Part shown: one piece after another, positions 3,949 to 57,977 of the stretch
Position numbering within the stretch: position 1 is the stretch's first letter
How the letters are laid out: every line of letters starts with the position of its first letter
Source: an uncultured Planctomycetales bacterium
GTDB lineage: Bacteria; Planctomycetota; UBA1135
Length of the DNA: 64,000 nucleotides
Reading direction: 5' to 3'
NCBI GenBank assembly: GCA_964637165.1
Contig: CAZWVI010000001.1
Location: 28,488-92,487, forward strand
Position numbers and translations under genes: made by a program
Notes under the pieces: generated by a model
The model's database searches: none
Told to the model about the DNA's origin: nothing
Seen by the model: only the letters and a program-made list of their open reading frames with translations

Positions 3949-3962
3949 CACTACCCCCCGCG

Positions 3963-8378: not shown

Positions 8379-8395
8379 TACAGCACAATCCCTTT

Positions 8396-26671: not shown

Positions 26672-26689
26672 GCATATTTCACGGGTAGC

Positions 26690-28894: not shown

Positions 28895-28941
28895 ATGAAT
28901 CAGACGTGGGCAAGAGTTGCTGATTACACTAAACTTTGCGC

Positions 28942-35565: not shown

Positions 35566-35587
35566 CGAAATAGCCAGTTAAAAAGAA

Positions 35588-35620
35588 AACTCCTGCGACT
35601 GACAAGCAGCCGCAGGAGTT
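35588..35620. terminator. Bidirectional intrinsic-terminator-like hairpin between convergent genes
   Basis: Inverted repeat AACTCCTGCG (35588-35597) / CGCAGGAGTT (35611-35620). An A-run lies upstream and a T-run downstream. On the minus strand the stem is followed by TTTTCTTTTT. Confidence 0.65.
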
Positions 35621-35640
35621 TTAAGGTTTAAGCTAAGTGC

Positions 35641-38295
35641 TTAGAGACGGTCATCAAGGTCATTTGCAACCTCAAGTGCATCAGTGATTTGTGCGCGGAT
35701 GATGATGATTACATCTTCCTTCTCGTTCGCTTCGCCTTCAGCTTTAAAGAGCATTGAAAGGAAAGGAATCTTGGCAAGGAAAGGTACCTCGGCACGTTGC
35801 TCAACATCAACAATCTTCTTAAGACCAGCAATTACAACTGAGCCACCATCAGGGATGACCGCAGTAGTGTTGGCGCTTGAAACACTTAACTCAGGGAGTT
35901 GCAGCGTAACCGGAGTGGTCAGGCCAGCAAGCGATGAGGTGAATTCAGGGATTGGACGCTTAAGTTGGGCTACGGTTGGGCGCAACTCAAGAGTGATGTA
36001 GCGACGGTCGTGACTGATGGTTGGACGCACATCAAGCACGATGCCATCAGAAACTACGCCAACTTGTGGGTCAGCGATCAAGGCAGCTTGAGCAACTTCA
36101 ACATCCATGTCCTGAACGTAAGTCACCTGGTTAACCACAGTGATGTAAGCGCGTTGAGTGTTGCGTGCTGAAACGGTGCTCGAGTTAAGTTCCTCGGCGC
36201 GGTTTGATTTTTCAACAGCGCGCAGAATCATTGACAACTGAGTGTCGTCAAGGAAAACAAACTGCATGGCCATTCCACCTGCATTTGATAGACGCGACCC
36301 GTAAGGACCGAGAATGTTTTCTGTGCGGGCGCGGATATCGCCATCGCCACCTTCGTTGTAGTAAGCACCGGCAGAAGGGTTGGCTTCAGCACCACTTGGT
36401 AGTCCAGAACCATCATTGTCTAAACCAAGTGAGGCGTTGTCCTCAAGACCTGAAGTTAGGTCGTCAAGGTTGGCCATGTCAGTTGGAGGGGAGAAGGTGC
36501 CGCCTAAGCCGCGGAAGTCAATCCCAACTTCTTGAAGGAAGTCTTTACGAACAGTTAAGAAGCGCGCTTCAATCGTAACCATTGAAGAGATGTAGCCCCG
36601 CATGTCTTGCAAGAACTCGTCAATCTCGCGCTGTACAGCTGGGGTGTGCCAAACAATTAGGTGACCGTTTGAGTAAGTTAAGGAAACTCCCTCAAGTTCT
36701 TCCCAAGTGTTCTTGGCAACGTTGGCCATAACCAAAGTCTCCAAGTTCATTGGGTCAAGAATCGGAACTGGCTCCCCAGTTACGCCACCTTGAATTGACT
36801 CTTCATCGTCTGAATCTTCATCAGGTAGGTGAATGTTGTCAATCTTTGGACCGCTGAAGTCCGTTAGGGTTGAAGTTAAATCTTGAACGTCATGCGCGCG
36901 CAAGATGAATTGACCTTGAGCGGACGAACGAGTGGTGATGTAAACAACACCATGCTTGAAGGTGTAAACAACTTCTGACCCGGCGGCATCGGTGATGACA
37001 CGCAGGGCGTTTTCAACGGTGATGGGGCGGTTTAGGTTTAAATCAAATTCAATTCCTTCTGAATCGACTGCCTCGACTGCATCCGGAGTGACCACAATTG
37101 GTGCATCGGTGTAGGGGCGAAGGCGATTAATTACTTCTTCAAGAGAAGGCTCAGCTTCAACTTGAAAGCCGGGGATTTTGGTCGAGGCAATCTCGGTAAT
37201 AATCGCTGCATTTTCTTCAGCAGTTTCAGGGTCACCACCGATTTCGCGGAAATGCTTGCGTGCTGCTGAAATCTCAGCCCAGTGGTCGAGATCTGGCATC
37301 GAAAGAATTTCGTTAGTTGGAATCATTGCCTCGGCAATGTCTTCTTGCCAACGCTTAAAGCGCTCATTGCGCTCTGTTAGAAAATCATCGTTTACCAACT
37401 CATGGCTGGCACGGTAGGTTGCATCACGCAGTTCCCGCGCGCGATCATTAAGCGGGTCTTCGCGCAGCAAATCTTCGCAAAGTTGCAAGGCCTCGTCATA
37501 GTTCTCTGAATCGAAAGAATCAATCGCAGTGTCAAGCATTAAAGCTAAACGTTGACTACGTTGTGCTGAACGAGCTTCTTCTTCAGCGCGCAATCGTTCC
37601 CAAGTCAATTGCTTTTCATTCTCGCGTTGGTTGGCCATCGCAGTATCGCGTTCAGCCTTCGCACGGTCAAGGGCAGCAGCAACGCGGCCGCTTAAACCAT
37701 TCCAGTCAATGTTGTAGCCAGTTCCCTCAATGCCGGCTTTAGCTAGGGATAGGGCCCCAACAGCTTCATCCAAATCTCCGTCTTCAAGTAGCTTGAAGCC
37801 GCGGTCAGCGTGAGCATGGATTTCTGCTTGCGCGCGTTGAATCCGCGCTTCCAAATTTAAACGTACATCGTCAATGGATCCAGTCAAGGGCACGCTTGCT
37901 CGGCCTAGTGCAACTTGGACTTGGTCAAAGAGTGAACGCACATCACGGTTTCCCGCGTCTAATTCCAAAGCAGCGATTAAAGAGTTTTCAGCTTCAAGTA
38001 GACGACCGTCAGCGAATGCTGAGCGGGCAGTATCTAAATGACCAGAAACAAGTAAAGCTGTCTTCTGCTCACGCAAATCTACATCTTTACGGCCTTGAAC
38101 AACAGGGTCTTGCACCATTGACCCAGGGTCAATGTTTGAGGTCTCGGAAACGACAGGCTGACTGGTGTTGTCGTTGTCGTTTACAACTACAGGGTTAGTG
38201 CAGGCAAAAAGGAGACCGGCCAGCAATGCAGGGCGGAGAACCGGGGACAGGGAGGCTTTCATTAACTTTTTGGGGGGCGGCTCGGAGTGAGCCAT
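35641..38295 (-). CDS. Secretin-family outer-membrane channel lipoprotein (884 aa) with a long TPR/coiled-coil N-terminal extension ('secretin A')
   Basis: Lipobox LLAGLLFAC. The N-terminal ~400 aa are helical and TPR-like. N0/N-domain-like segments are present (ITVENALRVITDAAG...VVYITT; NGHLIVWHTPAVQREIDEFLQDM). The secretin core shows GIDFRGLGG, FLDDTQLSMILRAVEKSNRAEELNSSTVSARNTQRAYI, IPDGGSVVIAGL and VPFLAKIPFLSMLFK. Confidence 0.9.
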   Translation of the reverse strand: MAHSEPPPKKLMKASLSPVLRPALLAGLLFACTNPVVVNDNDNTSQPVVSETSNIDPGSMVQDPVVQGRKDVDLREQKTALLVSGHLDTARSAFADGRLLEAENSLIAALELDAGNRDVRSLFDQVQVALGRASVPLTGSIDDVRLNLEARIQRAQAEIHAHADRGFKLLEDGDLDEAVGALSLAKAGIEGTGYNIDWNGLSGRVAAALDRAKAERDTAMANQRENEKQLTWERLRAEEEARSAQRSQRLALMLDTAIDSFDSENYDEALQLCEDLLREDPLNDRARELRDATYRASHELVNDDFLTERNERFKRWQEDIAEAMIPTNEILSMPDLDHWAEISAARKHFREIGGDPETAEENAAIITEIASTKIPGFQVEAEPSLEEVINRLRPYTDAPIVVTPDAVEAVDSEGIEFDLNLNRPITVENALRVITDAAGSEVVYTFKHGVVYITTRSSAQGQFILRAHDVQDLTSTLTDFSGPKIDNIHLPDEDSDDEESIQGGVTGEPVPILDPMNLETLVMANVAKNTWEELEGVSLTYSNGHLIVWHTPAVQREIDEFLQDMRGYISSMVTIEARFLTVRKDFLQEVGIDFRGLGGTFSPPTDMANLDDLTSGLEDNASLGLDNDGSGLPSGAEANPSAGAYYNEGGDGDIRARTENILGPYGSRLSNAGGMAMQFVFLDDTQLSMILRAVEKSNRAEELNSSTVSARNTQRAYITVVNQVTYVQDMDVEVAQAALIADPQVGVVSDGIVLDVRPTISHDRRYITLELRPTVAQLKRPIPEFTSSLAGLTTPVTLQLPELSVSSANTTAVIPDGGSVVIAGLKKIVDVEQRAEVPFLAKIPFLSMLFKAEGEANEKEDVIIIIRAQITDALEVANDLDDRL

Positions 38296-38315: not shown

Positions 38316-38825
38316 TTACTCCTCTTCGAAGGAGCCGGCAAAGGAAATCTTGGAGAAGCCCTTTGCAATTACAACATCGAGAATGCCAACGACGTCGCCG
38401 TAGACAACACCCTTGCGTGGGTCGATGGTGATGGGGGTGTCATCTTTCTGCTTTTGAGTTTTACTAAAGGCATTTAGGTGACGGTCAAGTCTCGCCAAAT
38501 CGGTGAACTTGGAGGAGCCGACTTCGAACTGAACGAGGCGTCCAACGTAGTGCTTGAGGCGACCTTGAGGTGATGAAGTTGTGCGAGTAGTTGGGTCAAG
38601 AACGAGTTGTCCTTTCTTTTTAACCTTAATGACAATGTCGACCTTTTCAATTTCGTCGGCAGTCGAGGCGCTAGTACCACGGTCCTTGGGCAGAGCAGCA
38701 TCGAGGCGCCCTTCAAGAACTTTGAACTTCAGCGTCACAATAAAGAAGATCAAGAGCAGGAAGGTGACGTCAATCATTGGCGCCATGTCCGGTTTTACTT
38801 CTTCAAACTTTTGAGGTTTACCCAT
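38316..38825 (-). CDS. exbD: ExbD/TolR-family protein (second copy)
   Basis: Shows PDMAPMIDVTFLLLIFFIV (conserved TM Asp) and a periplasmic domain ending PITIDPRKGVVYGDVVGILDV. Its ATG overlaps the upstream TAA (TAATG), with GGAGGAG upstream. Confidence 0.85.
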   Translation of the reverse strand: MGKPQKFEEVKPDMAPMIDVTFLLLIFFIVTLKFKVLEGRLDAALPKDRGTSASTADEIEKVDIVIKVKKKGQLVLDPTTRTTSSPQGRLKHYVGRLVQFEVGSSKFTDLARLDRHLNAFSKTQKQKDDTPITIDPRKGVVYGDVVGILDVVIAKGFSKISFAGSFEEE

Positions 38826-39355
38826 TACTTAACTCCTCCTACTTCCGGCTCAGAGGCAGCCAATTGAACTTTCCAAATGCGAATGCCTTCGCGGGTGCAG
38901 GTTTCCATGATTCGCGAGATGTACTTAAACTCGGTATTTCGGTCTGCACGAATCAAAATTGGATCATCAGGAAGCTTGCCCAAATTTGGATGTTCATCGT
39001 CAGCGACATGCTCCATCCGCTCAGCCCACTTCACCATTTCTTGGGCTAGCATCCAGTAGTAATCAGGTCGCCCTTTGCGGACAGGGTCGGTACGTCCACC
39101 AGAGTCAATGCCTGGCCAGTAGAGATCCTTCTTCTTATGAATGATGGTGCCGTCTGGCATTACGTTCAAAATCGGACGGCCTGGAGGAGGGTCGTCGTGG
39201 CCAGCTTCTACCGCGATTGGTAGTTTTAGGTCCTCGAGTTCCTGTTGAGTCAAGTCGTTAACAATGATGAAAAAGATGATCATCAAAAACGTAACGTCAA
39301 TCATGGGCGTCATGTCCATTTCGATGTCAGTGTCTGGTGTTCCTTTTTTACTCAT
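38825..39355 (-). CDS. exbD: ExbD/TolR-family protein (first copy)
   Basis: Shows MDMTPMIDVTFLMIIFFIIV, then a periplasmic domain (ILIRADRNTEFKYISRIMETC). Confidence 0.85.
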   Translation of the reverse strand: MSKKGTPDTDIEMDMTPMIDVTFLMIIFFIIVNDLTQQELEDLKLPIAVEAGHDDPPPGRPILNVMPDGTIIHKKKDLYWPGIDSGGRTDPVRKGRPDYYWMLAQEMVKWAERMEHVADDEHPNLGKLPDDPILIRADRNTEFKYISRIMETCTREGIRIWKVQLAASEPEVGGVK

Positions 39356-39387: not shown

Positions 39388-40101
39388 TTACTCAGTCGGG
39401 CGGAAGCGGTCGAACATTTCTTCAACGATGGCACCAATCTCAAGCGAGAGCATGTTTACACGGTTACGGAAGAAAACGAAGAACGCAGTTACCGGAATCG
39501 CCACGGTTAGACCCAAAACGGTAGTAACCAGAGCCAATTGAATGTCACCGGCAAAATCTCGTGGTTCAACGGATGCGGACGATGCAATAACACCAAACGC
39601 ACCAACCATTCCAGTAACCGTACCGAACAAACCCATCATGGGCGAGATTCCAGCGATAAGTGAAAGGTAGCCAATCTTTTGGTGAAGCTTGACTGACTCT
39701 TCGTCTTCCATTTCTTCAACAGATTTTTCCAGAGCTGCGAAAGGGTAACCAATTCGGCGAACTCCAGCGGCCACGATGTTAGTGAACATGCATGGTTCTG
39801 TCTCGCAGTACTCAAGAACTTCTTGGTAATTACCAGCGTTCATAAGCTCCTCAACTTCGTCAATAATTTCTGGCGGCGCAAGTTTCTCGCGCTTGATGCT
39901 CATGAAGTGTTCAACGATGAGTGTTCCAGCAACAACTGAAATACCAATGATGATAAAACCAATGGTACCACCCTTAGAGATGGCGTCGAAGATTCCGACC
40001 TTGTTGGCAGCAGCTACAGGAGCGGCTTCTTGGGCAAAGGCGTATGAGGTTGTGAGGAACCAGCCGGAAAGTAGGCCGGCGAGTTGGTGAAGACGGGTCA
40101 T
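39388..40101 (-). CDS. exbB: MotA/TolQ/ExbB-family proton-channel protein
   Basis: N-terminal signal-like segment, then three TM helices with the family motif (LSLIAGISPMMGLFGTVTGMVGAF...LALVTTVLGLTVAIP). Confidence 0.9.
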   Translation of the reverse strand: MTRLHQLAGLLSGWFLTTSYAFAQEAAPVAAANKVGIFDAISKGGTIGFIIIGISVVAGTLIVEHFMSIKREKLAPPEIIDEVEELMNAGNYQEVLEYCETEPCMFTNIVAAGVRRIGYPFAALEKSVEEMEDEESVKLHQKIGYLSLIAGISPMMGLFGTVTGMVGAFGVIASSASVEPRDFAGDIQLALVTTVLGLTVAIPVTAFFVFFRNRVNMLSLEIGAIVEEMFDRFRPTE

Positions 40102-40205: not shown

Positions 40206-41279
40206 TTAGCCATCAAGCATTGCGCGGGCTTTAACCGCCCAACTAGTAGAAGAGTAGTCATCTACTAGGCGTTGGTAATAAGACTTCGCAGAAGTTGGGG
40301 TATTTTCCAGCTCTGCACAAGTCTCGGCCAGCTCAAAAAGTGCTCTTGCACTAACTTCTTGGCTAGCTGGCATTGTCGCAACCACTTGCGCTAAAAGAAG
40401 TTGCGCGTCGCGTAAGGCTCCTGACTGGCGCGCCGCACGAGCCGCTCCAACAGTAGCCGCTGCGCGAACATCTAGGCTGGAATTACGATCTCGACCGAGG
40501 TTTTCCCAGTAAGAGCGCGCTTTTGCTACTCCATCTTTTGCTTCAATGGAATCGCCAAGGAGGATTTGCCCACGGCTATGTAGTTTGCGGAGGCGGGTGC
40601 GGAGCGCATTTGAGCTATCTCCGGACTTCAGCGCGTCAGCTATCTTCGGCACTAAGTCGCGTAGGCGAGCTTCGGCAACAGTTGCTTGTTTGCCTATAAG
40701 GAATACCTCGCAACGACCGAGCCTAGCACCGAATTCAATGTGGTTTGGCAGGGTCTTTTCAAACGCGAATGCGGCCAATTTCTCAAAAAGCTTGGCAGCT
40801 GAATCGGTATCACCAGCGGCGGCAGTGGCCATGGCTTGACCGGTTTGAGCTCGTGCTGAGAACCAACTATCTGGGTTGGCAGCTAGCCAGGTAGCAAAGG
40901 CTTTTTGAGCTTCGCTAGCTTTGCCTCCATCAATTTGCGACCAGGCGAGAAGCGTTTCAGCATTAAGCAAGCCTGCCAAGGTAGAGGTTAGGCCATCACT
41001 GGATGCTGCGATCGAGCTAAATGTCCCAGTAGCGTTTTGATAGTCAAAGTCAGCTAGGTATCGGTTTCCAGCACTTAAAGCGGAATTTACCGCAACTAGA
41101 TCCAAATCAAGAATTTGCGAACTTTTGAGCGACTTCGACTTGCCGCGACCATCTTTCCAGGTAACTTTTGAGACCGTGGCGGTTTCAATTGTTCCGTCGG
41201 TAACTGTTCCATCAAGCTGAATGATTGCATCTTGGGCGAATGCGGGAACGGCAAGTAGTAGGGCGCAGAGAGCAGGCAT
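40206..41279 (-). CDS. Secreted TPR-like repeat protein (~357 aa)
   Basis: The ATG at 41279 gives an immediate signal peptide (MPALCALLLAVPAFAQDA), 2 nt after the upstream stop. The rest is Ala/Leu-rich helical repeats. No Pro-rich spacer or TonB C-terminal domain was recognised. Confidence 0.7.
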   Translation of the reverse strand: MPALCALLLAVPAFAQDAIIQLDGTVTDGTIETATVSKVTWKDGRGKSKSLKSSQILDLDLVAVNSALSAGNRYLADFDYQNATGTFSSIAASSDGLTSTLAGLLNAETLLAWSQIDGGKASEAQKAFATWLAANPDSWFSARAQTGQAMATAAAGDTDSAAKLFEKLAAFAFEKTLPNHIEFGARLGRCEVFLIGKQATVAEARLRDLVPKIADALKSGDSSNALRTRLRKLHSRGQILLGDSIEAKDGVAKARSYWENLGRDRNSSLDVRAAATVGAARAARQSGALRDAQLLLAQVVATMPASQEVSARALFELAETCAELENTPTSAKSYYQRLVDDYSSTSWAVKARAMLDG

Positions 41280-41281
41280 GA

Positions 41282-44167
41282 TTATTGACGGTTCTTGAGC
41301 CATTTAAGAATGTTTGCTAGGTCAGCGCCGGCTGCTTCCTCCCCGAGGTCGGGGGCTAAGCGCTCAATGCTACTGATTAGGTTCGTGTGACGACCAGCAA
41401 AAGTGGTGTCCGAAGTAGACCGCTTGTAAAGCAAGTATGCGTATTGCATACGAGCTTGCCAATAAGGGGCGTGTTCGAATTTGCTAACGTTATTATCATT
41501 AGCGTCCTTTTCGGCTAGTTGGGTAAGGGTAGTAATTAGGGTTGTGGCCTTCTCGTAACTTTCAAGTCCACCGATTCCTTCAACTTCAACAACACGGCCT
41601 TCGCGAATAACTGGCCAGCCAACCAAAACCTTTGCGGCGGCATTAATCACTCGCAAGTTGTTGGGTTTCTTGTCCAGCAGTTCGTCAATGATTGGACCCG
41701 CTTGAGCAGTGTTAAATTGCATCAGGTAAGCATCGACCAAATCTAATTGAGCAAAGAAGCGATTGCTACTTGAGAAGGATTTGTCATCAGCAAAGTTGAC
41801 AATGATTTTTTCTAGAAGAGTAGTGGCTGCAGCTGGTTGCTGAATGTCTAAACGAAGGCGAGCTTCCTTAAGAAGGTTCTGCCAAGCTACTTTGCCGGCG
41901 CGGTTATTTGCTACTCCTAGGTAGTCAGTCGCAGTGGTTAGCAAACCGAGTTTCACTTTTTCGTCAGTCTCACTGTCAGCGCGTTTACTCCAAAAACCGA
42001 ACATGTAGTGGGCAGCTTGCGAAATACGCGAGTCTGGATATCCACCGCTAAGTAGTGATTCGTAGGCGCTAGTGGCGGCCGCATCGTCACCCAAGGCTAA
42101 GTGTGCTTCAAGCATCGAGACAATTGCCGCTGCTGCGTAACTGCGTTGCTCAGGATAGCGATCAGGGAATCCAGAGTATGAGTCAAGAACGCCTTGCCAA
42201 TGAATATCTTGACCGGCTTTAGCTTGTTTGTATCGTGTTTGGCCACGATAGAAATCTGCTTGAGATGTTGCGTCTTTTCTGGTCTTACGTCCGCGTGCGT
42301 CCTGAGGAGTGTTGTCAGGATTTTGCGTGAAAACTTCTAAGTAGTCATTGAAAATGCGGAAGGCTTCATCGCCAGCGCTGGCTTGCCAGGCAAGTTTGCG
42401 AAATTCGCACATGCCAATTTGCACCATGGCATTTTCAAAATAGCGACTTCCACGTTCAATTTTTTGGTAACTTGCAATGGAAGTGTTTAAGGCTTTTAGT
42501 GCTGCAGTAACTTCAGTGGATCCCTTTGCCTTACCGCGTGCTGCTCGGCCTTTATCTTTAGCCAAGCTGTAGTCTGATTGAGCTGCGTTCCAGATTGCTT
42601 GGTCTGGTGCGCCGCCGGTACTGGAAGCCGAGACTGCCGCAATCGAATCTTTAAAAAATCGATCAAGAGCGGCGTCGCCAGGGTTGGAGCTGCGGAATTT
42701 GTCGGCTAGCTTCATCCAAGCCTCAGCATTCTTAGCAGCGAACTCCTCGTCATCTGGGAAAAGTTCAAATCCTAATTGGTGACTAACAGCAGCTTCTAAA
42801 TCTTGTTCTAGGTAGGAGTAAGAACGGGCAAGGTAGTAGTAGGTGGCCGCGCCGAATTCGTCTGTTTGGCGACTTTTTCCTAAGCGGGTTAGGAGTAATA
42901 AAAACCCATCGCGTGCTTTGGCAAACTCTTTTTGAAAGTAAGCACCCTCAGCTGCAGAGTAAGCAACCCCGAGGTCAATTTTGGCATCTTCTGGGGCCGC
43001 GGCAATTGCTAGACCCATTACCTCGTTTGCATCGAGGCGCAGGCGGCTGGTTTCATTTTCACGAGCAACCAATTCGGCAACGGCGATCGCTTCAGCAAAA
43101 TTTCCGCTGCGCACTTGATTGCGTGCTACTAATAACAAAACCCGGTAGCCACTTTGGGAGAGGAATACACCCTCGTCATCAACCCATTGACGGAAAGTTT
43201 CGCCCAAGGTTACCGCATCTGCGGCGCGTCCCCATTTGGGGTAAAGCTTCATCATGCCTAAGTAGGCATCTTGTTGAACTTCGCGGCGGCCATCTACTTC
43301 AGCATCGGCCATTTCGTGGCCTTCTGGCACGGAGTTTTCAATGACGTGAAGATAGAAGGCTTCAGACTCTTCGAAAGTCATGTCGGCATCTTCGTTTTTG
43401 CCACGCGCCAATTCGGCTTCAGCGCGCAAAACATAAGTGTCGGCCATTTGTTTGTAGGCCATGAATCCAGGACGCGAGGAATCGCCAGCTAGCAAGGCGA
43501 AGTCCTCAAATAACTCTAAGCATTTTTGGGAACGTTCCAGGCGTTCAATGGTGCTTGGGTCGTAGGCAGCCGCCCAGAAGTAGAATATTTGGGCTTTAAA
43601 GTATTTCGCCGGAAAGTAAGCGGTGTAACGCAGAGAATCTTTCTCGTCGCCACTGGCCATGCTTTCCCATTGGCTAATAATTTTATCTAGTCCATCTTTA
43701 GCGGCTAGGAATAAGGTGTTGGCCTTTTCCGTTAGGGCGCTGCGCTCCTCCGAACCAACCGGGAGATTGACAATTTCAATCTGTAAGGCGGAGCCGTATT
43801 GAAAAGCTAATTCCCCAAGTGCTACTTGGGCGTTGGTGGCTAGTCGCGCCGGCGGCGAGTCCGCCAAGAAATCGGCGTAGGCACTTGCCGCTGCATTGAG
43901 CGCTTCAAGCTTTTGCTCGGGGTTAGCGCGGCGCGCAGTAGCTTTGCGAACGTCACAGCGAGCGAGCAACAACTCACTACGTCCAGCACCGCTAGCATTT
44001 TTCAATGCCTTGGATAGGACCTCCTCGGCCATTTCGTCAAAGCCAAGTTCAGTGGTCAAAGCGCGCGCGAAGTTAGCTTCGCGGCGGAGATGGAGATCGC
44101 CGGCCGGCTCCTGGAGGGGAGCTGGTAGGCAGAAGAGAAGCGTAGCCGTGGCTAGCATGCCTAGCAT
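41282..44167 (-). CDS. Large secreted TPR/helical-repeat protein (961 aa)
   Basis: N-terminal hydrophobic signal (MLGMLATATLLFCLPAP). The whole length consists of TPR-like A/Y/L-rich helical pairs. No enzymatic motif recognised. Confidence 0.75.
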   Translation of the reverse strand: MLGMLATATLLFCLPAPLQEPAGDLHLRREANFARALTTELGFDEMAEEVLSKALKNASGAGRSELLLARCDVRKATARRANPEQKLEALNAAASAYADFLADSPPARLATNAQVALGELAFQYGSALQIEIVNLPVGSEERSALTEKANTLFLAAKDGLDKIISQWESMASGDEKDSLRYTAYFPAKYFKAQIFYFWAAAYDPSTIERLERSQKCLELFEDFALLAGDSSRPGFMAYKQMADTYVLRAEAELARGKNEDADMTFEESEAFYLHVIENSVPEGHEMADAEVDGRREVQQDAYLGMMKLYPKWGRAADAVTLGETFRQWVDDEGVFLSQSGYRVLLLVARNQVRSGNFAEAIAVAELVARENETSRLRLDANEVMGLAIAAAPEDAKIDLGVAYSAAEGAYFQKEFAKARDGFLLLLTRLGKSRQTDEFGAATYYYLARSYSYLEQDLEAAVSHQLGFELFPDDEEFAAKNAEAWMKLADKFRSSNPGDAALDRFFKDSIAAVSASSTGGAPDQAIWNAAQSDYSLAKDKGRAARGKAKGSTEVTAALKALNTSIASYQKIERGSRYFENAMVQIGMCEFRKLAWQASAGDEAFRIFNDYLEVFTQNPDNTPQDARGRKTRKDATSQADFYRGQTRYKQAKAGQDIHWQGVLDSYSGFPDRYPEQRSYAAAAIVSMLEAHLALGDDAAATSAYESLLSGGYPDSRISQAAHYMFGFWSKRADSETDEKVKLGLLTTATDYLGVANNRAGKVAWQNLLKEARLRLDIQQPAAATTLLEKIIVNFADDKSFSSSNRFFAQLDLVDAYLMQFNTAQAGPIIDELLDKKPNNLRVINAAAKVLVGWPVIREGRVVEVEGIGGLESYEKATTLITTLTQLAEKDANDNNVSKFEHAPYWQARMQYAYLLYKRSTSDTTFAGRHTNLISSIERLAPDLGEEAAGADLANILKWLKNRQ

Positions 44168-44206: not shown

Positions 44207-44235
44207 GTCGGCCGAGGCTTAAATCCTCGGCCGAC
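44207..44235 (-). terminator. Strong hairpin between secretin B and the TPR genes (terminator/attenuator or RNA-stability element)
   Basis: Perfect 11-bp inverted repeat GTCGGCCGAGG (44207-44217) / CCTCGGCCGAC (44225-44235) with a 7-nt loop. It lies 10 nt downstream of the secretin B stop on the minus strand and is followed there by TTCAGTTT. Confidence 0.4.
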
Positions 44236-44244
44236 ATTTAGCAA

Positions 44245-46890
44245 CTACTGGGCAGAGCCCGGTGTAGCTGATGGTTCGAATTCTTCAGGCACGATAATCC
44301 GTGCGGATAGAAGAATGATCAGTTTCTGGTAGGACTCGTACTCGCCTTTCCGTGAAAAGAAGAAGGAGAGAATTGGAATCCGGTTAAGAATTGGGATGCC
44401 TGATTCTAGGTTTTGTTGATTAATCACTTTCATTCCACCAAGTAGCAAGGTGCCACCGTCTGGAATCATCACGCTGGTTGAAATCTTTTGCAGTTCCAAC
44501 TCTGGCAATTGCATTGTTACAGGTGAACCAGTTCCAAGTGATGTTTGGAATGAAGGGATTGGTCGAACTAGAGTCGCAACAGTTGGGCGAACATCAACGT
44601 AAGTGAAACGGCGGTCAGCTGAGACTACCGGTCGCACGTCGAGATACACACCGTCGCGGGCAACCCGAACAATCGGGTCAGCAATCGCCGCAGCTTGGGC
44701 GATTTCAACGTCAAAGTCACCAACGTATGAAACTTGGTTGGCAACTGTAAGGGTCGCACGTTGAGTATTTGAAACAGTAAGAGTTGATTCAGTTAGAACT
44801 TCACGTCGCTCAGACTTTTCAACTGCGCGCAACACCATGTTGAGTTGGGTGTCATCAAGGAATGTGTACTGCAAGCTTAAACCGCCAGAGCCCACCAAGC
44901 CTTCTTCGCTACCTAAACCTGAATCGTACAGGTGCTCAGTGCGTGAGATGATGTTGACGTTATCGCCAGCTTCACGGAAGTACATTCCTGAATCATTGCC
45001 AGTACCCAAGGTGCCAGGGGCGCCAGGTGAGCCTGGGTCAGTTCCGAAATCGTCGAAGACAAAATCATCTCCTTTACCAGAGATTCCAGATGTTGAATCA
45101 TCGCCAAGTCCGCGGAAGTCAACTCCAATGTCTTGCAAGAATGAATCTTCAACTTTTAAGAAGCGAACTTTGATGTCCACCATAATGTTTGAAGACTTGC
45201 GCAAATCTTCCAAGAGGCTCTTGATTCTTTCTTGGGTTGAAGGCGGCGCGTTAACAATCAACGTACCATTTTCAATTGCGACAGTTGCAGTGTCGTCCCA
45301 TGAGTCAGGCTCAATGTTCTCTTGGATGGCAGCCAGCAAATCATCCTCAGTAAGAACTTTTGCTTCGCGTTCAGGCAATTCTTCTTCAACTAATTCAATG
45401 CCACCAGAAGGGGCAAGGTTTACATCAGTTCCGACAAAGTCTTTAATTGGCCGAACAATGTCACGTACTTCAAACTTGTTGAGAATGTTGCCGCCGACTG
45501 ATTCTTCAGAACTCATTACATTGACCACGCCATTACGAATAACAAAACGCAATTGACCTTGGGTCATGTCTTCGATGATGGAAAGGATTTGCGAGACTGG
45601 CATCGCACGAGTGAAGGCCAAGTTAATAGTCTTTACATCTTCGTCCATGTCTTCACGTACAGCCCGCGAAACTACAAAGTTGACTCGAGTGTAGGCGGCT
45701 AAGTTGTCAGCAATTTCTTCAATTGTGTTTTCAAAGCGCGCTTCAATTCGAGTTGCGTCCAGTAGATTTTGGATTGCTGCTTCACTTGGGTCGGCCCCAG
45801 TTGCTGAAACCATCTTGTCTAGTGATTCTCGCTTAAGCACTGTGTTGCGCCAGTAATCGATGTCATGCTCGATAATGTTCTTTGGCGGCACAGCCATGGT
45901 GCGCAATTCATCAAAAGTAGCTTTCCATTGCTGACGGAAAGATGTGTCAGTTTCACGTTGACGGTTAGCGTGCCAAGCAGCGTTAGCTACTTCACGTAAG
46001 CCCAGTGCGTCTTGGTTGCGTGGATCCAATTCAAGTAAGGCGTCAAGCACCTTGACTGAATCGTTGTAATGACCTTGTGTGAACTTTTGGTTTGCGTCTT
46101 GGAATAAAGTTCGTACTCGGTTGCTTAAGTAGTTCTCGCGTGCGTCACGAGTCGCTTGTGCTTCTTGTTTGGCAGCAGCGGCTTCGGCTGAGCGTTGCGC
46201 GGTGAAGTAATCACTGCGCGCTTGGCTGGCTTCACTTAATTTTGATGCAACTAAGTTGTAGTCCAATGAACCGGCGGCCAAACTTGGTGAGGTGCGAAGA
46301 GCCATCTCAGCAGCTTGGTAAGAGCTCACGGCTGAATCAAAGTCGCCAGTCGCCATGGATGAATCGCCATCTTTGATTAGGCCTTCAACATGGATACGAC
46401 GATTCGCGCGGCGCAGCTGAGCTTGGGTGATGCGGTCTTCGGCTGAATCTACATCCCATGCACCACCAGCAAGCTGTTGTTCGCAACGACGTAAGCCATC
46501 GCGGCCATCACGGCTGTTCGGGTCAAGGTCGAGGGCATCGGCGTAAAGCATCGCGGCACCTTTGTAGTCTCCACGTTGGAACGCTTCATCGGCCTGGGCA
46601 ATAAACTGTCCACTTAGTAGACGAGCTTTTGCCTGATGGCGGTCAAGTTGGGCGCGCTCGTCAGAAACCGGCGCTTGAGGCGCAGGGTCTTGAACAGCAA
46701 CAGGTGTTGGGGCTGCGGGCGCAGCAGTGGGTGTGACCTCTACAGACGGCTCGGCTGGAGCTTCGGCAGATTCTTCGCTATCGGCCCAAGAGCCGAAATC
46801 GTCGAGAAACCACTCCTCGTCATTAGACTGGCAAGAAGCCAGAACGAGGGCGGGGAGCATGAACAGGGGGAACCGGTATTTGCGCATCAA
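44245..46890 (-). CDS. Secretin-family outer-membrane channel lipoprotein (881 aa), full-length paralog of secretin A ('secretin B')
   Basis: Lipobox LPALVLASC. TPR-like N-terminal region (FQRGDYKGAAMLYADALDLDPNS). N-domain-like segments are present (NGVVNVMSSE; NGTLIVNAPPSTQERIKSLLEDL). The secretin core shows GVDFRGLGD, FLDDTQLNMVLRAVEKSERREVL, IPDGGTLLLGGM and IPILNRIPILSFFFS. Confidence 0.9.
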   Translation of the reverse strand: MMRKYRFPLFMLPALVLASCQSNDEEWFLDDFGSWADSEESAEAPAEPSVEVTPTAAPAAPTPVAVQDPAPQAPVSDERAQLDRHQAKARLLSGQFIAQADEAFQRGDYKGAAMLYADALDLDPNSRDGRDGLRRCEQQLAGGAWDVDSAEDRITQAQLRRANRRIHVEGLIKDGDSSMATGDFDSAVSSYQAAEMALRTSPSLAAGSLDYNLVASKLSEASQARSDYFTAQRSAEAAAAKQEAQATRDARENYLSNRVRTLFQDANQKFTQGHYNDSVKVLDALLELDPRNQDALGLREVANAAWHANRQRETDTSFRQQWKATFDELRTMAVPPKNIIEHDIDYWRNTVLKRESLDKMVSATGADPSEAAIQNLLDATRIEARFENTIEEIADNLAAYTRVNFVVSRAVREDMDEDVKTINLAFTRAMPVSQILSIIEDMTQGQLRFVIRNGVVNVMSSEESVGGNILNKFEVRDIVRPIKDFVGTDVNLAPSGGIELVEEELPEREAKVLTEDDLLAAIQENIEPDSWDDTATVAIENGTLIVNAPPSTQERIKSLLEDLRKSSNIMVDIKVRFLKVEDSFLQDIGVDFRGLGDDSTSGISGKGDDFVFDDFGTDPGSPGAPGTLGTGNDSGMYFREAGDNVNIISRTEHLYDSGLGSEEGLVGSGGLSLQYTFLDDTQLNMVLRAVEKSERREVLTESTLTVSNTQRATLTVANQVSYVGDFDVEIAQAAAIADPIVRVARDGVYLDVRPVVSADRRFTYVDVRPTVATLVRPIPSFQTSLGTGSPVTMQLPELELQKISTSVMIPDGGTLLLGGMKVINQQNLESGIPILNRIPILSFFFSRKGEYESYQKLIILLSARIIVPEEFEPSATPGSAQ

Positions 46891-46968: not shown

Positions 46969-47895
46969 TTACTCGAGACTTAGAGGTAGTAGTAGTTCTA
47001 GGTCGAGAGCAGTTCCACAAGGATCCGTAAGACGCATGCTTGCAAGCAAGCGAGACTGGTCCAACGAGCGGGTACGCTCGGCTGGACGCCCCTCGATTAT
47101 GACCCTGCGGCCCAATGCGTCAAAGCGAGGAATACTAGTTTGTACGGAGATGGTGGTATCACGGACATTCAAACCTTCTAAAACCCACTCAGTATTTCCA
47201 ATAGGAGCGCCTGGCCAGGCCTTGAAAGGACCTAATTGTGGCCGTCCTGGCCGATTCAGGAAAAGCATAATTGAGCCATCTTCAGTGAGACCTTCAGTTG
47301 TCCAATTCGTCCGCCTTGGCATGGTCGCGGTGGCCGCAACTGGCGCGGATTCAGCACGTACCTGAGAACCGTCAAGAACGCTACTCGGGCGGTTCAATAT
47401 AGTTCTTAGCCTATATCTGTAAGGTGTTCCCTCACAGTCGATTACGTCAAAATATTCATTCTTTTTTGTGCTTCCGAGCGGGGTCGCTGAACCGTCTCCA
47501 GCCCATCTCGTCAGCTTGTATTCAAGGCCATTGATGGGGTTGCGTATATCAGCAACCCAGGTAAGGCTGATTCCACCTGTTTGAGGCGAAGCGGTGAAGT
47601 CAATAGGCGGGTAAACCTGTGAAATGTCATCAAGGTCGGCGGTGTTGGACGAGGATGTTGTGGTGAAAACGCCAAATGTTTTTCTGCTAGGACGAACTTT
47701 GCGGCCACTTTTTTTAATGAATTTAGAAAAATTTTGGCTGGCGGCAAAAATTTGCTCTGAACTTACGACTCCACTTGGTGAATCAGAGTTTGTGGCCGGC
47801 GCTACTGCGGTTGGAGTTGGCAGGAAAGTAAGAACGGCAAATAGCAGGAGCGAAATCGCTGCGGTCACAATCGCCAGAAATCTATTGACCGACAT
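46969..47895 (-). CDS. Bitopic membrane protein with a possible FN3-like periplasmic domain, in the position of PilP/GspC upstream of the secretin
   Basis: N-terminal TM helix (FLAIVTAAISLLLFAVLTFL), an S/T-rich linker, then a beta-rich region (GGISLTWVADIRNPINGLEYKLTRW...YRYRLRTI). The functional role is inferred from position only. Confidence 0.5.
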   Translation of the reverse strand: MSVNRFLAIVTAAISLLLFAVLTFLPTPTAVAPATNSDSPSGVVSSEQIFAASQNFSKFIKKSGRKVRPSRKTFGVFTTTSSSNTADLDDISQVYPPIDFTASPQTGGISLTWVADIRNPINGLEYKLTRWAGDGSATPLGSTKKNEYFDVIDCEGTPYRYRLRTILNRPSSVLDGSQVRAESAPVAATATMPRRTNWTTEGLTEDGSIMLFLNRPGRPQLGPFKAWPGAPIGNTEWVLEGLNVRDTTISVQTSIPRFDALGRRVIIEGRPAERTRSLDQSRLLASMRLTDPCGTALDLELLLPLSLE

Positions 47896-48448
47896 TGTTC
47901 AAAATTTGTTTTACGCTAAACACTCTCATGGTGAAATCTAATTCAAGACCATCTCCGTTTTCGCTGATAGAAATATGGACGGGATCGCTTAAATAACCAA
48001 GGCGTTCAGGCATTTCAAGTAAGTGGAAGCAAAACGGAAGTAGGCTTGCGCTGCTGCCAGAAGCATTTAACTTAAGTTCGATGCATGAAAGTGATGCAAG
48101 ATGTTTGATTGACAAGCCATTTGCGTGCCCATCTCGACCAAGTCCAAGCTCGGTCCATCGTTCTAACTCAAGTCGCGCTAATTGACCAAGAAAGGGAGTC
48201 GCTAGTGATTCACTGCCGGCTAAATCGCTAAGACCCCAATCGCTTAAGCGCGTTTTAATTTGACTAACACTTGCCGCTGACGCAGCTTTGCCTAAAGTCG
48301 GCAAATACCAATCGTGATATTCCTCGATTGCCGGCGTCGAAGTCTTTTGTGAAGTTACAGTTTGTGGCAATGAAGTTGAACGATGCCACCACTGCTGGGC
48401 AAGAGCAATGTTGAATCCAATTAGGAGTGAGCAGAATATGTATTTCAA
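47882..48448 (-). CDS. Small bitopic membrane protein (188 aa), PilO/GspM-like by position and topology
   Basis: Single N-terminal TM (IFCSLLIGFNIALA) plus a ~160-aa periplasmic part. ATGA start/stop overlap with the upstream gene. No sequence motif recognised. Confidence 0.45.
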   Translation of the reverse strand: MKYIFCSLLIGFNIALAQQWWHRSTSLPQTVTSQKTSTPAIEEYHDWYLPTLGKAASAASVSQIKTRLSDWGLSDLAGSESLATPFLGQLARLELERWTELGLGRDGHANGLSIKHLASLSCIELKLNASGSSASLLPFCFHLLEMPERLGYLSDPVHISISENGDGLELDFTMRVFSVKQILNNVGQ

Positions 48449-55047: not shown

Positions 55048-55097
55048 TTTTGGTCAGTCGTCATCTCCCTCGCATTAATCACAACTTCAAGCCGAGC

Positions 55098-57975: not shown

Positions 57976-57977
57976 GC

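What the first reader, a model, noticed from the sequence alone, without database searches (positions are those of the whole stretch)
35641..38295. Secretin A and secretin B are full-length paralogs, each a lipoprotein with a ~400-aa TPR/coiled-coil extension N-terminal to the N0-like domain
- Both proteins (884 and 881 aa; the second is at 44245-46890) start with a lipobox Cys (LLFAC / LASC).
- This is followed by a low-complexity acidic stretch and matching TPR-like helices (ARSAFADGRLLEAENSLIAALELDAGNRD vs ADEAFQRGDYKGAAMLYADALDLDPNSRD; NYDEALQLCEDLLREDPLNDRA vs HYNDSVKVLDALLELDPRNQDA).
- Then come N0/N-domain-like segments and a secretin core that I align by eye at roughly 60% identity over about 110 residues (FLDDTQL...RPIP).
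- Canonical GspD/PilQ proteins are not themselves lipoproteins with TPR N-termini. In those systems, lipidation and TPR functions are usually supplied by separate pilotins or TsaP/PilW/PilF-type partners.
- Retention of two complete copies at the two ends of one locus suggests either a hetero-oligomeric channel or two channels served by one motor.
Basis: seen in the sequence. Interest (0 to 1): 0.6.

Follow-up and report, generated by a model that had tools for sequence, protein, structure and literature searches.

The report
Twin lipoprotein secretins flanking a TolQR-type motor
Two related outer-membrane channel proteins, each with its own lipid anchor and helical scaffold, sit at the two ends of a widely conserved Planctomycetota operon that also encodes a proton-driven ExbB/ExbD motor, a secretin-motor pairing I did not find described in the literature I could search.

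Summary
SecA (35641-38295, true start probably Met12) and SecB (44245-46890, start ATG at codon 2) are full-length paralogs: 32% identity over 834 aa, E 2e-117. Both carry a lipobox whose Cys is invariant in 29 close and 50 distant relatives. After it come a disordered tether, a confidently modelled ~300-aa TPR/long-helix module, two N-type domains and a secretin barrel.

The architecture itself is not new. It is the PVC "Amuc_1098/PilQ" type, and lipoprotein secretins such as HxcQ and BfpB are known. About 324 clusters at 50% identity share the N-terminal module.

What I did not find described is the context. The operon reads pilM-like, two small genes, secB, 961-aa TPR protein, 365-aa TPR protein, exbB, exbD, exbD, secA. 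This order recurs in more than 20 metagenomic loci and in 6 of 7 distant family members. The locus has no TonB or TolA, no vWA transducer, no secretion ATPase and no platform gene.

I read it as one envelope-spanning machine in which a 5:2 proton motor and periplasmic TPR proteins serve two separate secretin channels. The coupling is inferred from synteny only. Novelty: new variant of a known kind. Interest: 0.65.

The parts
48445..49521 (-). h358, first gene of the operon. Predicted cytoplasmic actin-like (ASKHA) domain (res 1-205), one TM helix (about 219-239) and a periplasmic C-terminal domain. This is a PilM-PilN / GspL-like architecture.
   Evidence: The AF2 model has pLDDT about 70-80 over the N-domain. 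Foldseek matches ROK kinases (E 3e-7), PilM 5eoy (E 1e-4) and FtsA. The same position in related operons holds genes with Pfam PilM_2 (L084, L085). L082_514 matches the PilM_2 protein of L081 at E 1e-11. h358 itself has no Pfam or PDB sequence hit.
47882..48448 (-). h188, a small protein with an N-terminal signal or anchor and a periplasmic domain. It holds the PilO/GspM-like position. Function unproven.
   Evidence: Sequence. No Pfam hit. Present upstream of SecB in L043.
46969..47895 (-). h308, with an N-terminal TM anchor, a Pro/Thr/Ala-rich linker and a C-terminal domain of about 200 aa. It holds the PilP/GspC-like position. Function unproven.
   Evidence: Sequence. Conserved next to SecB in L003, L008, L021, L042, L043 and L044. 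Weak match to L082_345 (E 1.7e-5 in a 12-sequence search). No Pfam or PDB hit.
44245..46887 (-). SecB, a lipoprotein secretin of 880 aa counted from the ATG at codon 2. Signal peptide and lipobox Cys lie at 46831-46887, the helical/TPR module at about 45748-46662, and the Pfam Secretin domain at 44293-44826.
44207..44235 (-). GC-rich hairpin (11 bp stem, 9 G-C pairs) just after the SecB stop codon. Possibly a partial terminator or an RNA-stabilising element.
   Evidence: This is a consensus scan only and no function has been shown.
41282..44167 (-). TPR961, a 961-aa exported helical/TPR protein. It is the partner most constantly found between the two secretins.
   Evidence: Signal-peptide-like N-terminus. 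Only a weak TPR_14 hit. Orthologs lie in the same position in more than 20 loci, including L002, which lacks the motor. Matches L082_971 at E 1e-21. No PDB sequence hit.
40206..41303 (-). TPR365, a 365-aa exported protein with a small beta-rich N-terminal part and a CpoB/YbgF-like C-terminal TPR domain.
   Evidence: AFA|QD signal-peptidase site. NCBIfam tol_pal_ybgF E 3.5e-9, 37 bits against a cutoff of 90. Pfam TPR_16 and TPR_19. The only PDB hint is CpoB, not significant. Orthologs in related loci.
39388..40101 (-). ExbB/TolQ-type proton-channel subunit, 237 aa.
   Evidence: Pfam MotA_ExbB 84 bits. NCBIfam TolQ 64 bits scores above ExbB 46 bits, both far below cutoff. E. coli TolQ residues T145, T178 and P187 are conserved in the alignment.
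38825..39355 (-). ExbD1, a TolR/ExbD-type subunit of 176 aa.
   Evidence: Pfam ExbD 59 bits. The Asp that aligns with E. coli TolR D23 is conserved.
38316..38825 (-). ExbD2, a second and divergent TolR/ExbD-type subunit of 169 aa.
   Evidence: Pfam ExbD 75 bits. The TolR D23 equivalent is conserved.
35641..38262 (-). SecA, a lipoprotein secretin of 873 aa counted from Met12. Signal peptide and lipobox Cys lie at 38200-38262, the disordered tether at 38098-38199, the helical/TPR module at 37183-38097, two N-type alpha/beta domains at 36526-37182, a conserved Gly/Asp-rich segment at 36256-36525, and the secretin core at 35644-36255.
35586..35622 (-). 16-bp hairpin followed by a T-run just after the SecA stop codon. 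Likely the operon terminator. The next gene, a HAD hydrolase, converges on it.

Best explanation
SecA and SecB are anciently duplicated members of the PVC-type 'TPR-lipo-secretin' superfamily, whose named relative is Akkermansia PilQ/Amuc_1098.

Architecture, shown or strongly supported: each protein is exported and lipidated on a conserved Cys. Neither has Asp at position +2, so each is probably sorted to the outer membrane. A flexible tether of about 45 aa follows. Then comes a built-in helical/TPR module of about 300 aa that probably takes the role of a separate pilotin or scaffold, then N0- and N3-like ring domains, then a secretin barrel.

Operon, shown: the two genes bracket one conserved operon of about 14 kb. 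Its order is pilM(N)-like, two small envelope genes, secB, TPR961, TPR365, exbB, exbD1, exbD2, secA.

Mechanism, inferred: the products form one envelope-spanning machine. SecB is the PilQ-equivalent channel, docked to a PilMNOP-like inner-membrane subcomplex. An ExbB5-ExbD1/ExbD2 proton-driven 5:2 motor acts through the two exported TPR proteins, taking the place of a TonB/TolA transducer. It would gate, energise or position the secretin channels, SecA in particular. The two paralogs most likely form two separate homo-oligomeric rings. The cargo is unknown. Candidates are a type IV filament through SecB and proton-motive-force-dependent passage of macromolecules through SecA.
For: Paralogy and domains.

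Lipobox: the Cys is invariant in 29/29 and 50/50 relatives, and both N-termini fit the lipobox pattern.

Fold: the helical module and N-domains are confidently modelled. The best structural matches are BfpB, InvG, PulD and PilQ. The helical part matches TPR proteins, including the pilotin PilF.

Age of the duplication: the SecA and SecB clades are reciprocally monophyletic, and pairs from the same locus split between them.

Conserved gene order:
- Close relatives L001 and L003.
- More than 20 metagenome loci down to about 40% identity.
- L005 at 28% identity.
- 6 of 7 sampled distant representatives: L082, L083/L084, L085, L086, L087. A Pfam-recognisable PilM_2 gene leads the operon in L084 and L085.

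Motor: the proton-pathway residues are intact. TolR D23 is conserved in both ExbDs, and TolQ T145/T178/P187 in ExbB.

Missing alternatives: Pfam and NCBIfam scans of the operon genes found no TonB, TolA, TolB, Pal, vWA, T2SS/T4P ATPase or platform gene.

Precedent: TPR + tolQ-like + heterologous tolR-pair modules have been noted in PVC bacteria as motors of unknown function (PMC12204202). Myxococcus AglR/AglQ/AglS with periplasmic TPR Glt proteins is a TolQR-driven envelope machine (PMC3169522).
Against: - Coupling between motor and secretins rests on synteny alone. No interaction was modelled or measured.
- L002 keeps secB-TPR961-secA but has no TPR365, exbB or exbD between them. The motor genes are therefore not obligatorily in the locus.
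- Unrelated cytoplasmic or enzymatic genes sit between exbD and secA in many relatives: a PLP decarboxylase and sulfatase-TPR proteins.
- Some family members are stand-alone or only PilM-linked, with no motor nearby (L004, L006, L007, L081).
- The window also encodes a prepilin peptidase and a pilin-like protein about 25 kb away. An ordinary ATPase-driven type IV filament machine may therefore use SecB.
- No force-transducer-like protein (TM helix with an SHLS motif) is present to link the motor to the outer membrane.
- The identification of h358 as PilM-like rests on a low-confidence model (mean pLDDT 54) and on gene position.
Confidence: 0.5

Rival explanations
1. Neighbours, not partners. 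SecB is simply the PilQ-type secretin of a conventional ATPase-driven type IV filament machine whose other genes are scattered in the genome. SecA is a second secretin for another such machine. The TPR-TolQ-TolR-TolR module is a Tol-like cell-envelope maintenance or division system. It is co-transcribed with the secretins because all are envelope components.
For: - PilM-like genes lead the operon in relatives.
- The window has a prepilin peptidase (8258-9382) and a GFTLSE pilin-like gene (12065-12640).
- ExbB and ExbD2 score slightly better against TolQ and TolR than against ExbB and ExbD. TPR365 resembles CpoB/YbgF.
- L002 keeps both secretins without the motor.
- L081 has PilM and a secretin without the motor.
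- Metabolic genes are interspersed in relatives.
Against: - The order secretin, large TPR, TPR, tolQ, tolR, tolR, secretin is kept down to 27-36% protein identity and in 6 of 7 distant representatives. That is far beyond what co-regulation of unrelated systems usually preserves.
- TolA, TolB and Pal are absent from the locus.
- The motor scores are far below the Tol-Pal equivalog cutoffs.
Confidence: 0.27
2. One hetero-oligomeric channel. SecA and SecB co-assemble into a single mixed secretin ring, or into two stacked rings, at a fixed stoichiometry.
For: - Both copies are always retained together, with TPR961 between them.
- The barrel core is the most similar part, at 50-65% identity. That could preserve a common oligomerisation interface.
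Against: - All secretin structures retrieved here are homo-oligomers of one secretin chain, in some cases with bound accessory proteins such as BfpG, TsaP, AspS or PulS.
- The two clades have diverged to 24-27% identity in the ring-forming N-domains and helical modules.
- Single-copy family members exist.
- SecB alone sits next to the PilM-like genes.
Confidence: 0.1
3. A Glt/Nfs-like surface-transport machine. The TolQ plus two TolR motor and the exported TPR proteins would move a complex along the envelope, for gliding or for deposition of surface polymer, as in Myxococcus. The secretins would act as nozzles for a polymer.
For: - The motor composition (one TolQ, two TolR) and the exported TPR proteins match Agl-Glt (PMC3169522).
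- Secretins are required for slime polysaccharide secretion in cyanobacteria and myxobacteria (PMC12475490).
Against: - No homologs of Glt-specific proteins, no TonB-C-like domains and no polysaccharide synthesis or export genes were detected in the operon.
- No cytoplasmic track-coupling component was found.
Confidence: 0.06

Closest known systems
Akkermansia muciniphila PilQ (Amuc_1098) and its Amuc_1102-1098 cluster; NCBIfam NF042912 'Amuc_1098 family type IV pilus outer membrane protein'
   Same: - A PVC-superphylum secretin of about 900 aa with an N-terminal TPR ('pilotin-like') region and a C-terminal secretin domain (PMC4960237).
- It is preceded by an FtsA/PilM-like gene and two small exported proteins (PMC5332112), as h358-h188-h308 precede SecB.
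- NF042912 matches SecB over residues 147-727, and it is the top-matching family for all 50 distant relatives.
   Different: - Scores of 75 and 96 bits are far below the 750-bit family cutoff, so these are distant relatives and not equivalogs.
- The Akkermansia papers I read describe no second secretin, no large TPR proteins and no ExbB/ExbD genes in that cluster. I could not inspect the Akkermansia genome itself.
Self-piloting lipoprotein secretins: HxcQ (P. aeruginosa T2SS) and BfpB (EPEC type IVb pilus)
   Same: - An N-terminal lipobox on the secretin itself.
- BfpB (9u5s) is the best structural match to the SecA model.
- HxcQ is self-piloted by its lipid anchor (Viarre 2009, as cited in PMC12475490).
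   Different: - To my knowledge, which I did not test here, those proteins lack a 300-aa helical/TPR module. They lie in complete T2SS or T4bP operons with ATPase, platform and pilins.
- Sequence similarity is confined to the barrel (E 3e-3 for BfpB).
PVC 'TPR - tolQ-like - heterologous tolR pair - vWA transducer' clusters (Mol Biol Evol 2025, PMC12204202)
   Same: The motor module is the same: a TPR gene, one TolQ-like gene and two different TolR-like genes, in PVC bacteria. It is proposed there to be a new proton-motive-force-driven envelope system of unknown function.
   Different: - In those clusters the motor is followed by inner-membrane-tethered vWA proteins with an SHLS helix. In this window it is followed directly by a secretin and preceded by a 961-aa TPR protein and another secretin. 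No vWA or SHLS-type transducer is present.
- The paper contains no occurrence of the word 'secretin'.
Myxococcus xanthus Agl-Glt gliding machinery (and the Ton and Tol-Pal systems generally)
   Same: One TolQ-type and two TolR-type subunits (AglR, AglQ, AglS) work with exported TPR proteins and outer-membrane components as an envelope-spanning machine driven by proton-motive force (PMC3169522).
   Different: - The outer-membrane partners there are small beta-barrels and lipoproteins, not secretins.
- From my own knowledge, not checked in these calls, Glt includes TonB-C-like proteins (GltG/J) and cytoplasmic components. No counterpart was detected in this operon.

Membership tests
Secretin superfamily (Pfam PF00263) | C-terminal secretin beta-barrel domain above the Pfam gathering score | tested here: met
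   86.3 and 79.1 bits against a cutoff of 27.5.
Secretin superfamily (Pfam PF00263) | Periplasmic N0/N1-N3-type ring-building domains ahead of the barrel | tested here: met
   The AF2 model has two alpha/beta domains at 377-470 and 509-583 with pLDDT about 75-88. Foldseek aligns about 590-650 columns to full-length BfpB, InvG and PulD at E 1e-12 to 1e-13. SecB has a weak Secretin_N hit.
Secretin superfamily (Pfam PF00263) | Forms a 12-15-mer outer-membrane channel | not testable with these tools
   Only monomer prediction was available, and the barrel has low pLDDT as a monomer.
Amuc_1098 family (NCBIfam NF042912, equivalog) | Whole-protein score at or above the curated cutoff of 750 bits | tested here: not met
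   SecA 75.1 bits and SecB 96 bits. The best E-value among 50 distant relatives is 8.6e-42.
Amuc_1098 family (NCBIfam NF042912, equivalog) | Architecture of N-terminal TPR region plus C-terminal secretin, downstream of an FtsA/PilM-like gene | tested here: met
   for the architecture. for the PilM-like upstream gene, which for h358 is inferred from fold and position.
Lipoprotein (self-piloting) secretins, HxcQ/BfpB type | Signal peptide ending in a lipobox with a conserved Cys | tested here: met
   Both N-termini match the lipobox pattern. The Cys is invariant in 29/29 and 50/50 relatives.
Lipoprotein (self-piloting) secretins, HxcQ/BfpB type | Actual N-acyl-diacylglyceryl modification, and outer-membrane targeting that depends on it | not testable with these tools
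   Needs globomycin or palmitate labelling and a Cys-to-Ala mutant.
Type IVa pilus secretin PilQ (TIGR02515) | Score at or above the 284-bit cutoff | tested here: not met
   68.6 and 74.8 bits.
Type IVa pilus secretin PilQ (TIGR02515) | N-terminal AMIN domains (that AMIN domains typify T4aP PilQ is my own knowledge, not a tool result) | tested here: not met
   No AMIN hit at E up to 1.
Type IVa pilus secretin PilQ (TIGR02515) | Encoded downstream of pilM-pilN-pilO-pilP | tested here: inconclusive
   Three genes with the right topologies precede SecB. h358 has an actin-like fold in a low-confidence model. The equivalent genes in L084 and L085 carry Pfam PilM_2. h188 and h308 have no detectable similarity to PilO or PilP.
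Type II secretion secretin GspD (TIGR02517) | Score at or above the 351-bit cutoff | tested here: not met
   68.8 and 62.3 bits.
Type II secretion secretin GspD (TIGR02517) | Located in an operon with GspE ATPase, GspF platform and pseudopilins | tested here: not met
   No T2SSE or T2SSF hit among the ORFs of at least 150 aa scanned across the 64-kb window. Pilin-related genes (a prepilin peptidase and one pilin-like gene) lie only about 25 kb away.
Ton system (ExbB-ExbD-TonB with TonB-dependent transporter) | ExbB/ExbD proton-channel subunits with the essential TM Asp and Thr residues | tested here: met
   Pfam MotA_ExbB and ExbD. The equivalents of TolR D23 and TolQ T145/T178/P187 are conserved. 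All NCBIfam equivalog cutoffs are missed.
Ton system (ExbB-ExbD-TonB with TonB-dependent transporter) | TonB transducer and a TonB-dependent beta-barrel receptor | tested here: not met
   No TonB_C, TolA or TonB_dep_Rec hit in any scanned ORF of the window. The rest of the genome was not available.
Tol-Pal system | tolQ-tolR-tolA-tolB-pal-cpoB gene set | tested here: not met
   Only TolQ/TolR-like genes and a CpoB-like TPR gene (37 bits against a cutoff of 90) are in the locus, with no TolA, TolB or Pal. An OmpA-family lipoprotein lies 30 kb away at 9410-10102.
PVC TPR-tolQ-tolR-tolR-vWA clusters (PMC12204202) | [quoted passage not shown] | tested here: met
   TPR365, ExbB, ExbD1 and ExbD2.
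PVC TPR-tolQ-tolR-tolR-vWA clusters (PMC12204202) | A downstream inner-membrane-tethered vWA protein with an SHLS-type TM helix | tested here: not met
   No vWA domain in any operon gene. No His-containing SHLS-like TM helix in h358, h188, h308 or the TPR proteins.

The most novel reading that the evidence does not exclude
The operon would encode the first secretin-based machine powered by a Ton/Tol-type 5:2 proton motor rather than, or in addition to, a cytoplasmic ATPase. ExbB5-ExbD1/ExbD2 would transmit force through the exported TPR961 and TPR365 proteins to a dedicated secretin (SecA). The paralog SecB would pass a type IV filament. Together they could form the long-sought planctomycetal apparatus that captures and imports large polymers into the periplasm. 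That mechanism was still called unknown in a 2025 review (PMC12673574). They might also correspond to the crateriform outer-membrane complexes.
Probability: 0.25. Interest if true: 0.9.

Novelty: new variant of a known kind. Interest (0 to 1): 0.65.

Why it matters
- Energy source: to my knowledge, secretin channels are served by cytoplasmic ATPases (T2SS, T4P, T3SS) or by phage assembly proteins. None has been tied to a TolQR/ExbBD proton motor.
- Open question on orphan motors: a widely conserved operon that links the two would add a new class to the envelope machines driven by 5:2 motors. It would also suggest a function for the 'orphan' TPR-tolQ-tolR-tolR motors recently noted in PVC bacteria.
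- Open question on uptake: many Planctomycetes lack TonB and TonB-dependent receptors (PMC3422733) yet take up macromolecules by an unknown route. This operon gives concrete genes to delete, tag and image.
- Built-in pilotin: the family also shows how a secretin can carry its own lipid anchor and pilotin-like scaffold. That bears on outer-membrane targeting in phyla without known pilotins.

Tried and rejected
- Placement in a characterised secretin clade failed. Every NCBIfam secretin model (MshL, PilQ, GspD, SctC, PilN, HofQ) is missed by a wide margin. PDB sequence hits cover only the last 70-200 residues at E of 3e-6 or weaker.
- A full phylogeny against T2SS, T4P, Tad, T3SS and phage clades was not built, because no reference sequence set was at hand. 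HMM score ranking was used instead.
- SignalP and LipoP were not available. I replaced them with a pattern test and conservation.
- Sequence searches for the accessory genes gave nothing. h358, h308 and TPR961 have no PDB hits. h358, h188 and h308 have no Pfam hits even at E up to 1. h358 has only one non-identical homolog in the 5.8-billion-protein index, so its model rests on two sequences.
- The 936-aa and 374-aa proteins of L005 could not be linked to TPR961 and TPR365 by profile search. Their equivalence is by position and size only.
- Ten literature searches found no paper linking secretins with ExbB/ExbD or TolQR in PVC bacteria. These covered secretin+ExbB+Planctomycetes, secretin+ExbD+TPR, crateriform+secretin and similar combinations. 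The library lacks most subscription journals, so this absence is not proof.
- I first concluded that the window had no pilus genes. A later scan corrected this, finding a prepilin peptidase and a pilin-like gene. My first regex for pilin motifs was too strict and found nothing.
- The hetero-oligomer versus two-ring question could not be addressed, because no multimer prediction was available.
- I considered horizontal transfer or a mobile element and dropped it. GC content is flat at 0.47-0.52 across the window, and flanking synteny (UDG upstream; HAD, ABC transporter, ComEC and ComM downstream) is conserved in relatives.

Full report
**1. The observation.** The two ORFs are present on the minus strand as stated: 35641-38295 (884 codons) and 44245-46890 (881 codons). 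BLASTP between them gives 32% identity over 834 residues, E 2e-117. Identity is uneven. The helical module is 24% identical, the N-domains 27%, the secretin core 50%, and the FLDDTQL...RPIP stretch 67/103 = 65%. Pfam finds the Secretin domain at the C-terminus of both (86 and 79 bits, cutoff 27.5). It finds only weak or borderline TPR matches in the N-terminal third.

**2. Lipoprotein signal.** SignalP and LipoP were not available. Both N-termini fit the PROSITE-type lipobox rule. From Met12, SecA reads MKASLSPVLRPALLAGLLFA|C-T. From the ATG at codon 2, SecB reads MRKYRFPLFMLPALVLAS|C-Q. In an alignment of SecA with 26 homologs, P0030 and SecB, Met12 and Cys32 are invariant, and every sequence has the M-K/R, hydrophobic stretch, [AG]-C pattern. 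In 50 distant family members at 23-55% identity the Cys is again invariant. I therefore place the SecA start at Met12 (38262) and the SecB start at 46887. JGI's gene call of 880 aa agrees with the latter. Neither +2 residue is Asp. By the E. coli sorting rule, which is established knowledge and was not tested in this phylum, that points to the outer membrane.

**3. Structure.** An AlphaFold2 model of SecA built on 29 sequences has the following parts:
- Residues 8-66 have pLDDT below 50 and form the tether.
- Residues 67-371 are helical with pLDDT 80-95. They include TPR-like hairpins and three very long helices (141-172, 201-262, 284-323).
- Two alpha/beta domains lie at 377-470 and 509-583.
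- A conserved Gly/Asp-rich segment at about 590-697 has low confidence.
- The barrel follows. It is poorly modelled, as expected for a monomer.

Foldseek against the PDB ranks the lipoprotein secretin BfpB first (E 4e-13). InvG, PulD, GspD and PilQ follow. The helical part matches generic TPR proteins, including the pilotin PilF. The refutation condition 'N-terminus fully disordered' is therefore not met.

**4. How common the architecture is.** A profile of the two N-terminal helical modules was searched against 1.84 billion representative proteins. It finds 324 clusters at E of 1e-10 or better. Of the top 147, 71 are 800-1100 aa long with a single full-length match near residues 60-400, and most start with a lipobox. 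All 50 that I aligned match NCBIfam NF042912 (Amuc_1098 family). No other family has a better best E-value (8.6e-42), but the scores lie far below the family's 750-bit cutoff. SecA scores 75 bits and SecB 96 bits.

Akkermansia PilQ/Amuc_1098 was described in 2016 as a 907-aa outer-membrane secretin with an N-terminal pilotin-like TPR domain conserved in related bacteria (PMC4960237). Lipoprotein secretins are also known: HxcQ (cited in PMC12475490) and BfpB. The architecture is therefore a distant branch of a known PVC-type family and not a novelty in itself.

**5. The locus.** All genes from 49521 to 35641 lie on the minus strand with short gaps or overlaps. The order is h358, h188, h308, SecB, TPR961, TPR365, ExbB, ExbD1, ExbD2, SecA. 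A GC-rich hairpin follows the SecB stop. A 16-bp hairpin with a T-run follows the SecA stop, where the next gene converges.

ExbB carries the residues that align with E. coli TolQ T145, T178 and P187. Both ExbDs carry the Asp that aligns with TolR D23. That these residues are essential for proton conduction is established knowledge. TPR365 ends in a CpoB/YbgF-like TPR domain. TPR961 and TPR365 have cleavable-looking signal peptides.

No TonB, TolA, TolB, Pal, vWA domain, secretion ATPase or platform protein was found in the operon. About 25 kb away the window does encode a prepilin peptidase (8258-9382) and a protein with a QG|FTLSE prepilin motif (12065-12640). The organism therefore makes type IV filaments of some kind.

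**6. The three upstream genes.** h358 has no sequence match and only one non-identical homolog in the index. A two-sequence AlphaFold2 model has mean pLDDT 54, with the N-domain at about 70-80. It shows a double beta-beta-beta-alpha-beta-alpha-beta-alpha fold followed by a TM helix and a periplasmic part. Foldseek returns ASKHA/actin-like proteins: ROK kinases at E 3e-7, PilM at E 1e-4, and FtsA.

In related operons the gene in this position carries Pfam PilM_2 (L084, L085). The L082 equivalent matches the bona fide PilM_2 protein of L081 at E 1e-11. Akkermansia has the same layout: an FtsA-like gene, two exported proteins, then the secretin (PMC5332112). I therefore read h358-h188-h308-SecB as a pilM(N)-O-P-Q-like unit. 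This is an inference. h188 and h308 are assigned by topology and position only.

**7. Conservation of the arrangement.**
- Close relatives from two Planctomycetota MAGs keep the whole order.
- A metagenome scan returned 69 loci. Nearly every locus with enough flank shows secB, TPR961, TPR365, exbB, exbD, exbD, an optional extra gene, secA, HAD. That is more than 20 loci, down to about 40% identity. L002 is the exception (see below).
- The extra gene is a PLP-dependent decarboxylase in many loci. In others it is a sulfatase-TPR protein.
- L005, at 28% identity, keeps the order.
- Of seven distant representatives whose contigs I could read, six sit in the same operon: L082, L083/L084 on one contig, L085, L086 and L087. 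One (L081, from a 9.3-Mb complete genome) has only a PilM gene, one other gene and the secretin.

There are exceptions. L002 keeps secB-TPR961-secA with the same flanking genes but lacks TPR365, exbB and exbD. Three Phycisphaerae-like relatives are stand-alone genes. A neighbour-joining tree separates SecA-type and SecB-type proteins into two clades, and pairs from one locus split between them. The duplication is therefore old. The L005 pair branches at the base.

**8. Interpretation.** The descriptive part is well supported: two paralogous, self-anchored TPR-secretins bracket a conserved operon that contains a TolQ plus two TolR motor and two exported TPR proteins.

The mechanistic reading is inferred from synteny that survives to below 30% identity. 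It is that the motor, through the TPR proteins, serves the secretins, with SecB docked to a PilMNOP-like subcomplex and SecA as a second channel. It has precedents. TPR-tolQ-tolR-tolR modules of unknown function were recently noted in PVC bacteria, there followed by vWA transducers, in a paper that never mentions secretins (PMC12204202). Myxococcus uses AglR/AglQ/AglS with exported TPR proteins as an envelope machine (PMC3169522).

The main rival is that the secretins work with an ATPase-driven type IV filament machine encoded elsewhere, and that the motor module is an unrelated Tol-like system that happens to be co-transcribed. L002, L081, the interspersed metabolic genes and the pilin genes in the window speak for it. 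The depth of the conserved order and the lack of TolA, TolB and Pal speak against it. I cannot distinguish two homo-oligomeric rings from a mixed ring. I favour two rings for three reasons: every secretin structure retrieved contains a single secretin species, single-copy family members exist, and the ring-forming domains have diverged to about 25% identity.

**9. Novelty and limits.** Ten full-text searches found no paper that links secretins with ExbB/ExbD or TolQR. A 2025 review still calls the planctomycetal macromolecule-uptake mechanism unknown (PMC12673574). [quoted passage not shown] The library lacks most subscription journals, so prior description cannot be excluded.

I rate the finding a new variant of a known kind: a known secretin family in a gene context that I did not find described but that is widespread. 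Interest is 0.65. The most novel reading not excluded is a secretin machine driven by proton-motive force, possibly the planctomycetal polymer-uptake apparatus. I give it probability about 0.25.

Noticed in passing
window 8258-9382 (+) and 12065-12640 (+): A prepilin peptidase (Peptidase_A24 plus A24_N_bact) and a 191-aa ORF with a QG|FTLSELLLV prepilin motif (N_methyl 19.8 bits, just under the cutoff). The genome therefore encodes type IV filament components about 25 kb from the secretin operon.
   Followed up: partly
window 25163-28966 (-): ComEC (Competence plus Lactamase_B domains) lies next to a ComM/YifB-type Mg-chelatase-like ATPase. Both are DNA-uptake/competence genes. The block SecA, HAD, peptide ABC transporter, ComEC, ComM is syntenic in many related loci. 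A DNA-uptake role for one secretin is an untested lead.
   Followed up: no
window 44207-44235 and 35586-35622 (-): A strong hairpin lies immediately after each of the two secretin stop codons. The one after SecB has no good T-run. It could attenuate transcription of the TPR and motor genes or stabilise the secB message.
   Followed up: no
L011 8333-9832; L036 7520-9181; L082 19122-21068; L083 6525-9665: Relatives carry extra genes between exbD2 and secA that this window lacks. They are a PLP-dependent decarboxylase (Pyridoxal_deC, 206 bits), or a membrane-anchored sulfatase/alkaline-phosphatase-family protein fused to TPRs. In L083/L084 there is also a second exbD-exbD pair.
   Followed up: partly
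L002 1565-10497: A GC-rich groundwater relative keeps UDG, one gene, secB, TPR961, secA, HAD and the ABC transporter, but has no TPR365, exbB or exbD between the secretins. The secretin-TPR961-secretin trio is the most constant core.
   Followed up: partly
window 36256-36525 (SecA residues about 591-680) and the matching part of SecB: A Gly/Asp/Asn-rich segment of about 90 aa lies between the first barrel strands and the Pfam Secretin core. It is well conserved across the whole family (consensus ...RGLG...DD.G.G...GDxRxRxEN...GGLSLQ) but is modelled with pLDDT below 50. Its role (cap, gate or metal binding) is unknown.
   Followed up: no
window 778-3948, 3945-7520, 7524-8378, 14425-17472 (+), 13404-14297 (-): A group of large ORFs of 284-1191 aa have lipobox-like N-termini (FSSC, LAGC, FTSC, LPGC, ILGC). 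Their only domain matches are weak Big_5 hits. They are uncharacterised predicted lipoproteins next to the prepilin peptidase.
   Followed up: no
window 9410-10102 (+): An OmpA-family peptidoglycan-binding protein with a lipobox (LLLPAC) and a coiled-coil-like N-terminal half. It is a Pal-like or stator-anchor-like envelope protein.
   Followed up: no
window 49514-50167 (-): A UDG-superfamily gene overlaps the h358 start by 8 nt. It is the conserved upstream neighbour of the operon in relatives (L002, L014, L022, L029, L043, L082). In some relatives it abuts secB directly, and the three pilMNOP-like genes are absent.
   Followed up: partly
window 54577-63937 (+): A division and cell-wall cluster: mraZ, rsmH, a PBP transpeptidase, murE, murF, mraY and ftsW. 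A LysM-domain ORF overlaps the end of ftsW. No ftsZ was seen in the part covered.
   Followed up: no
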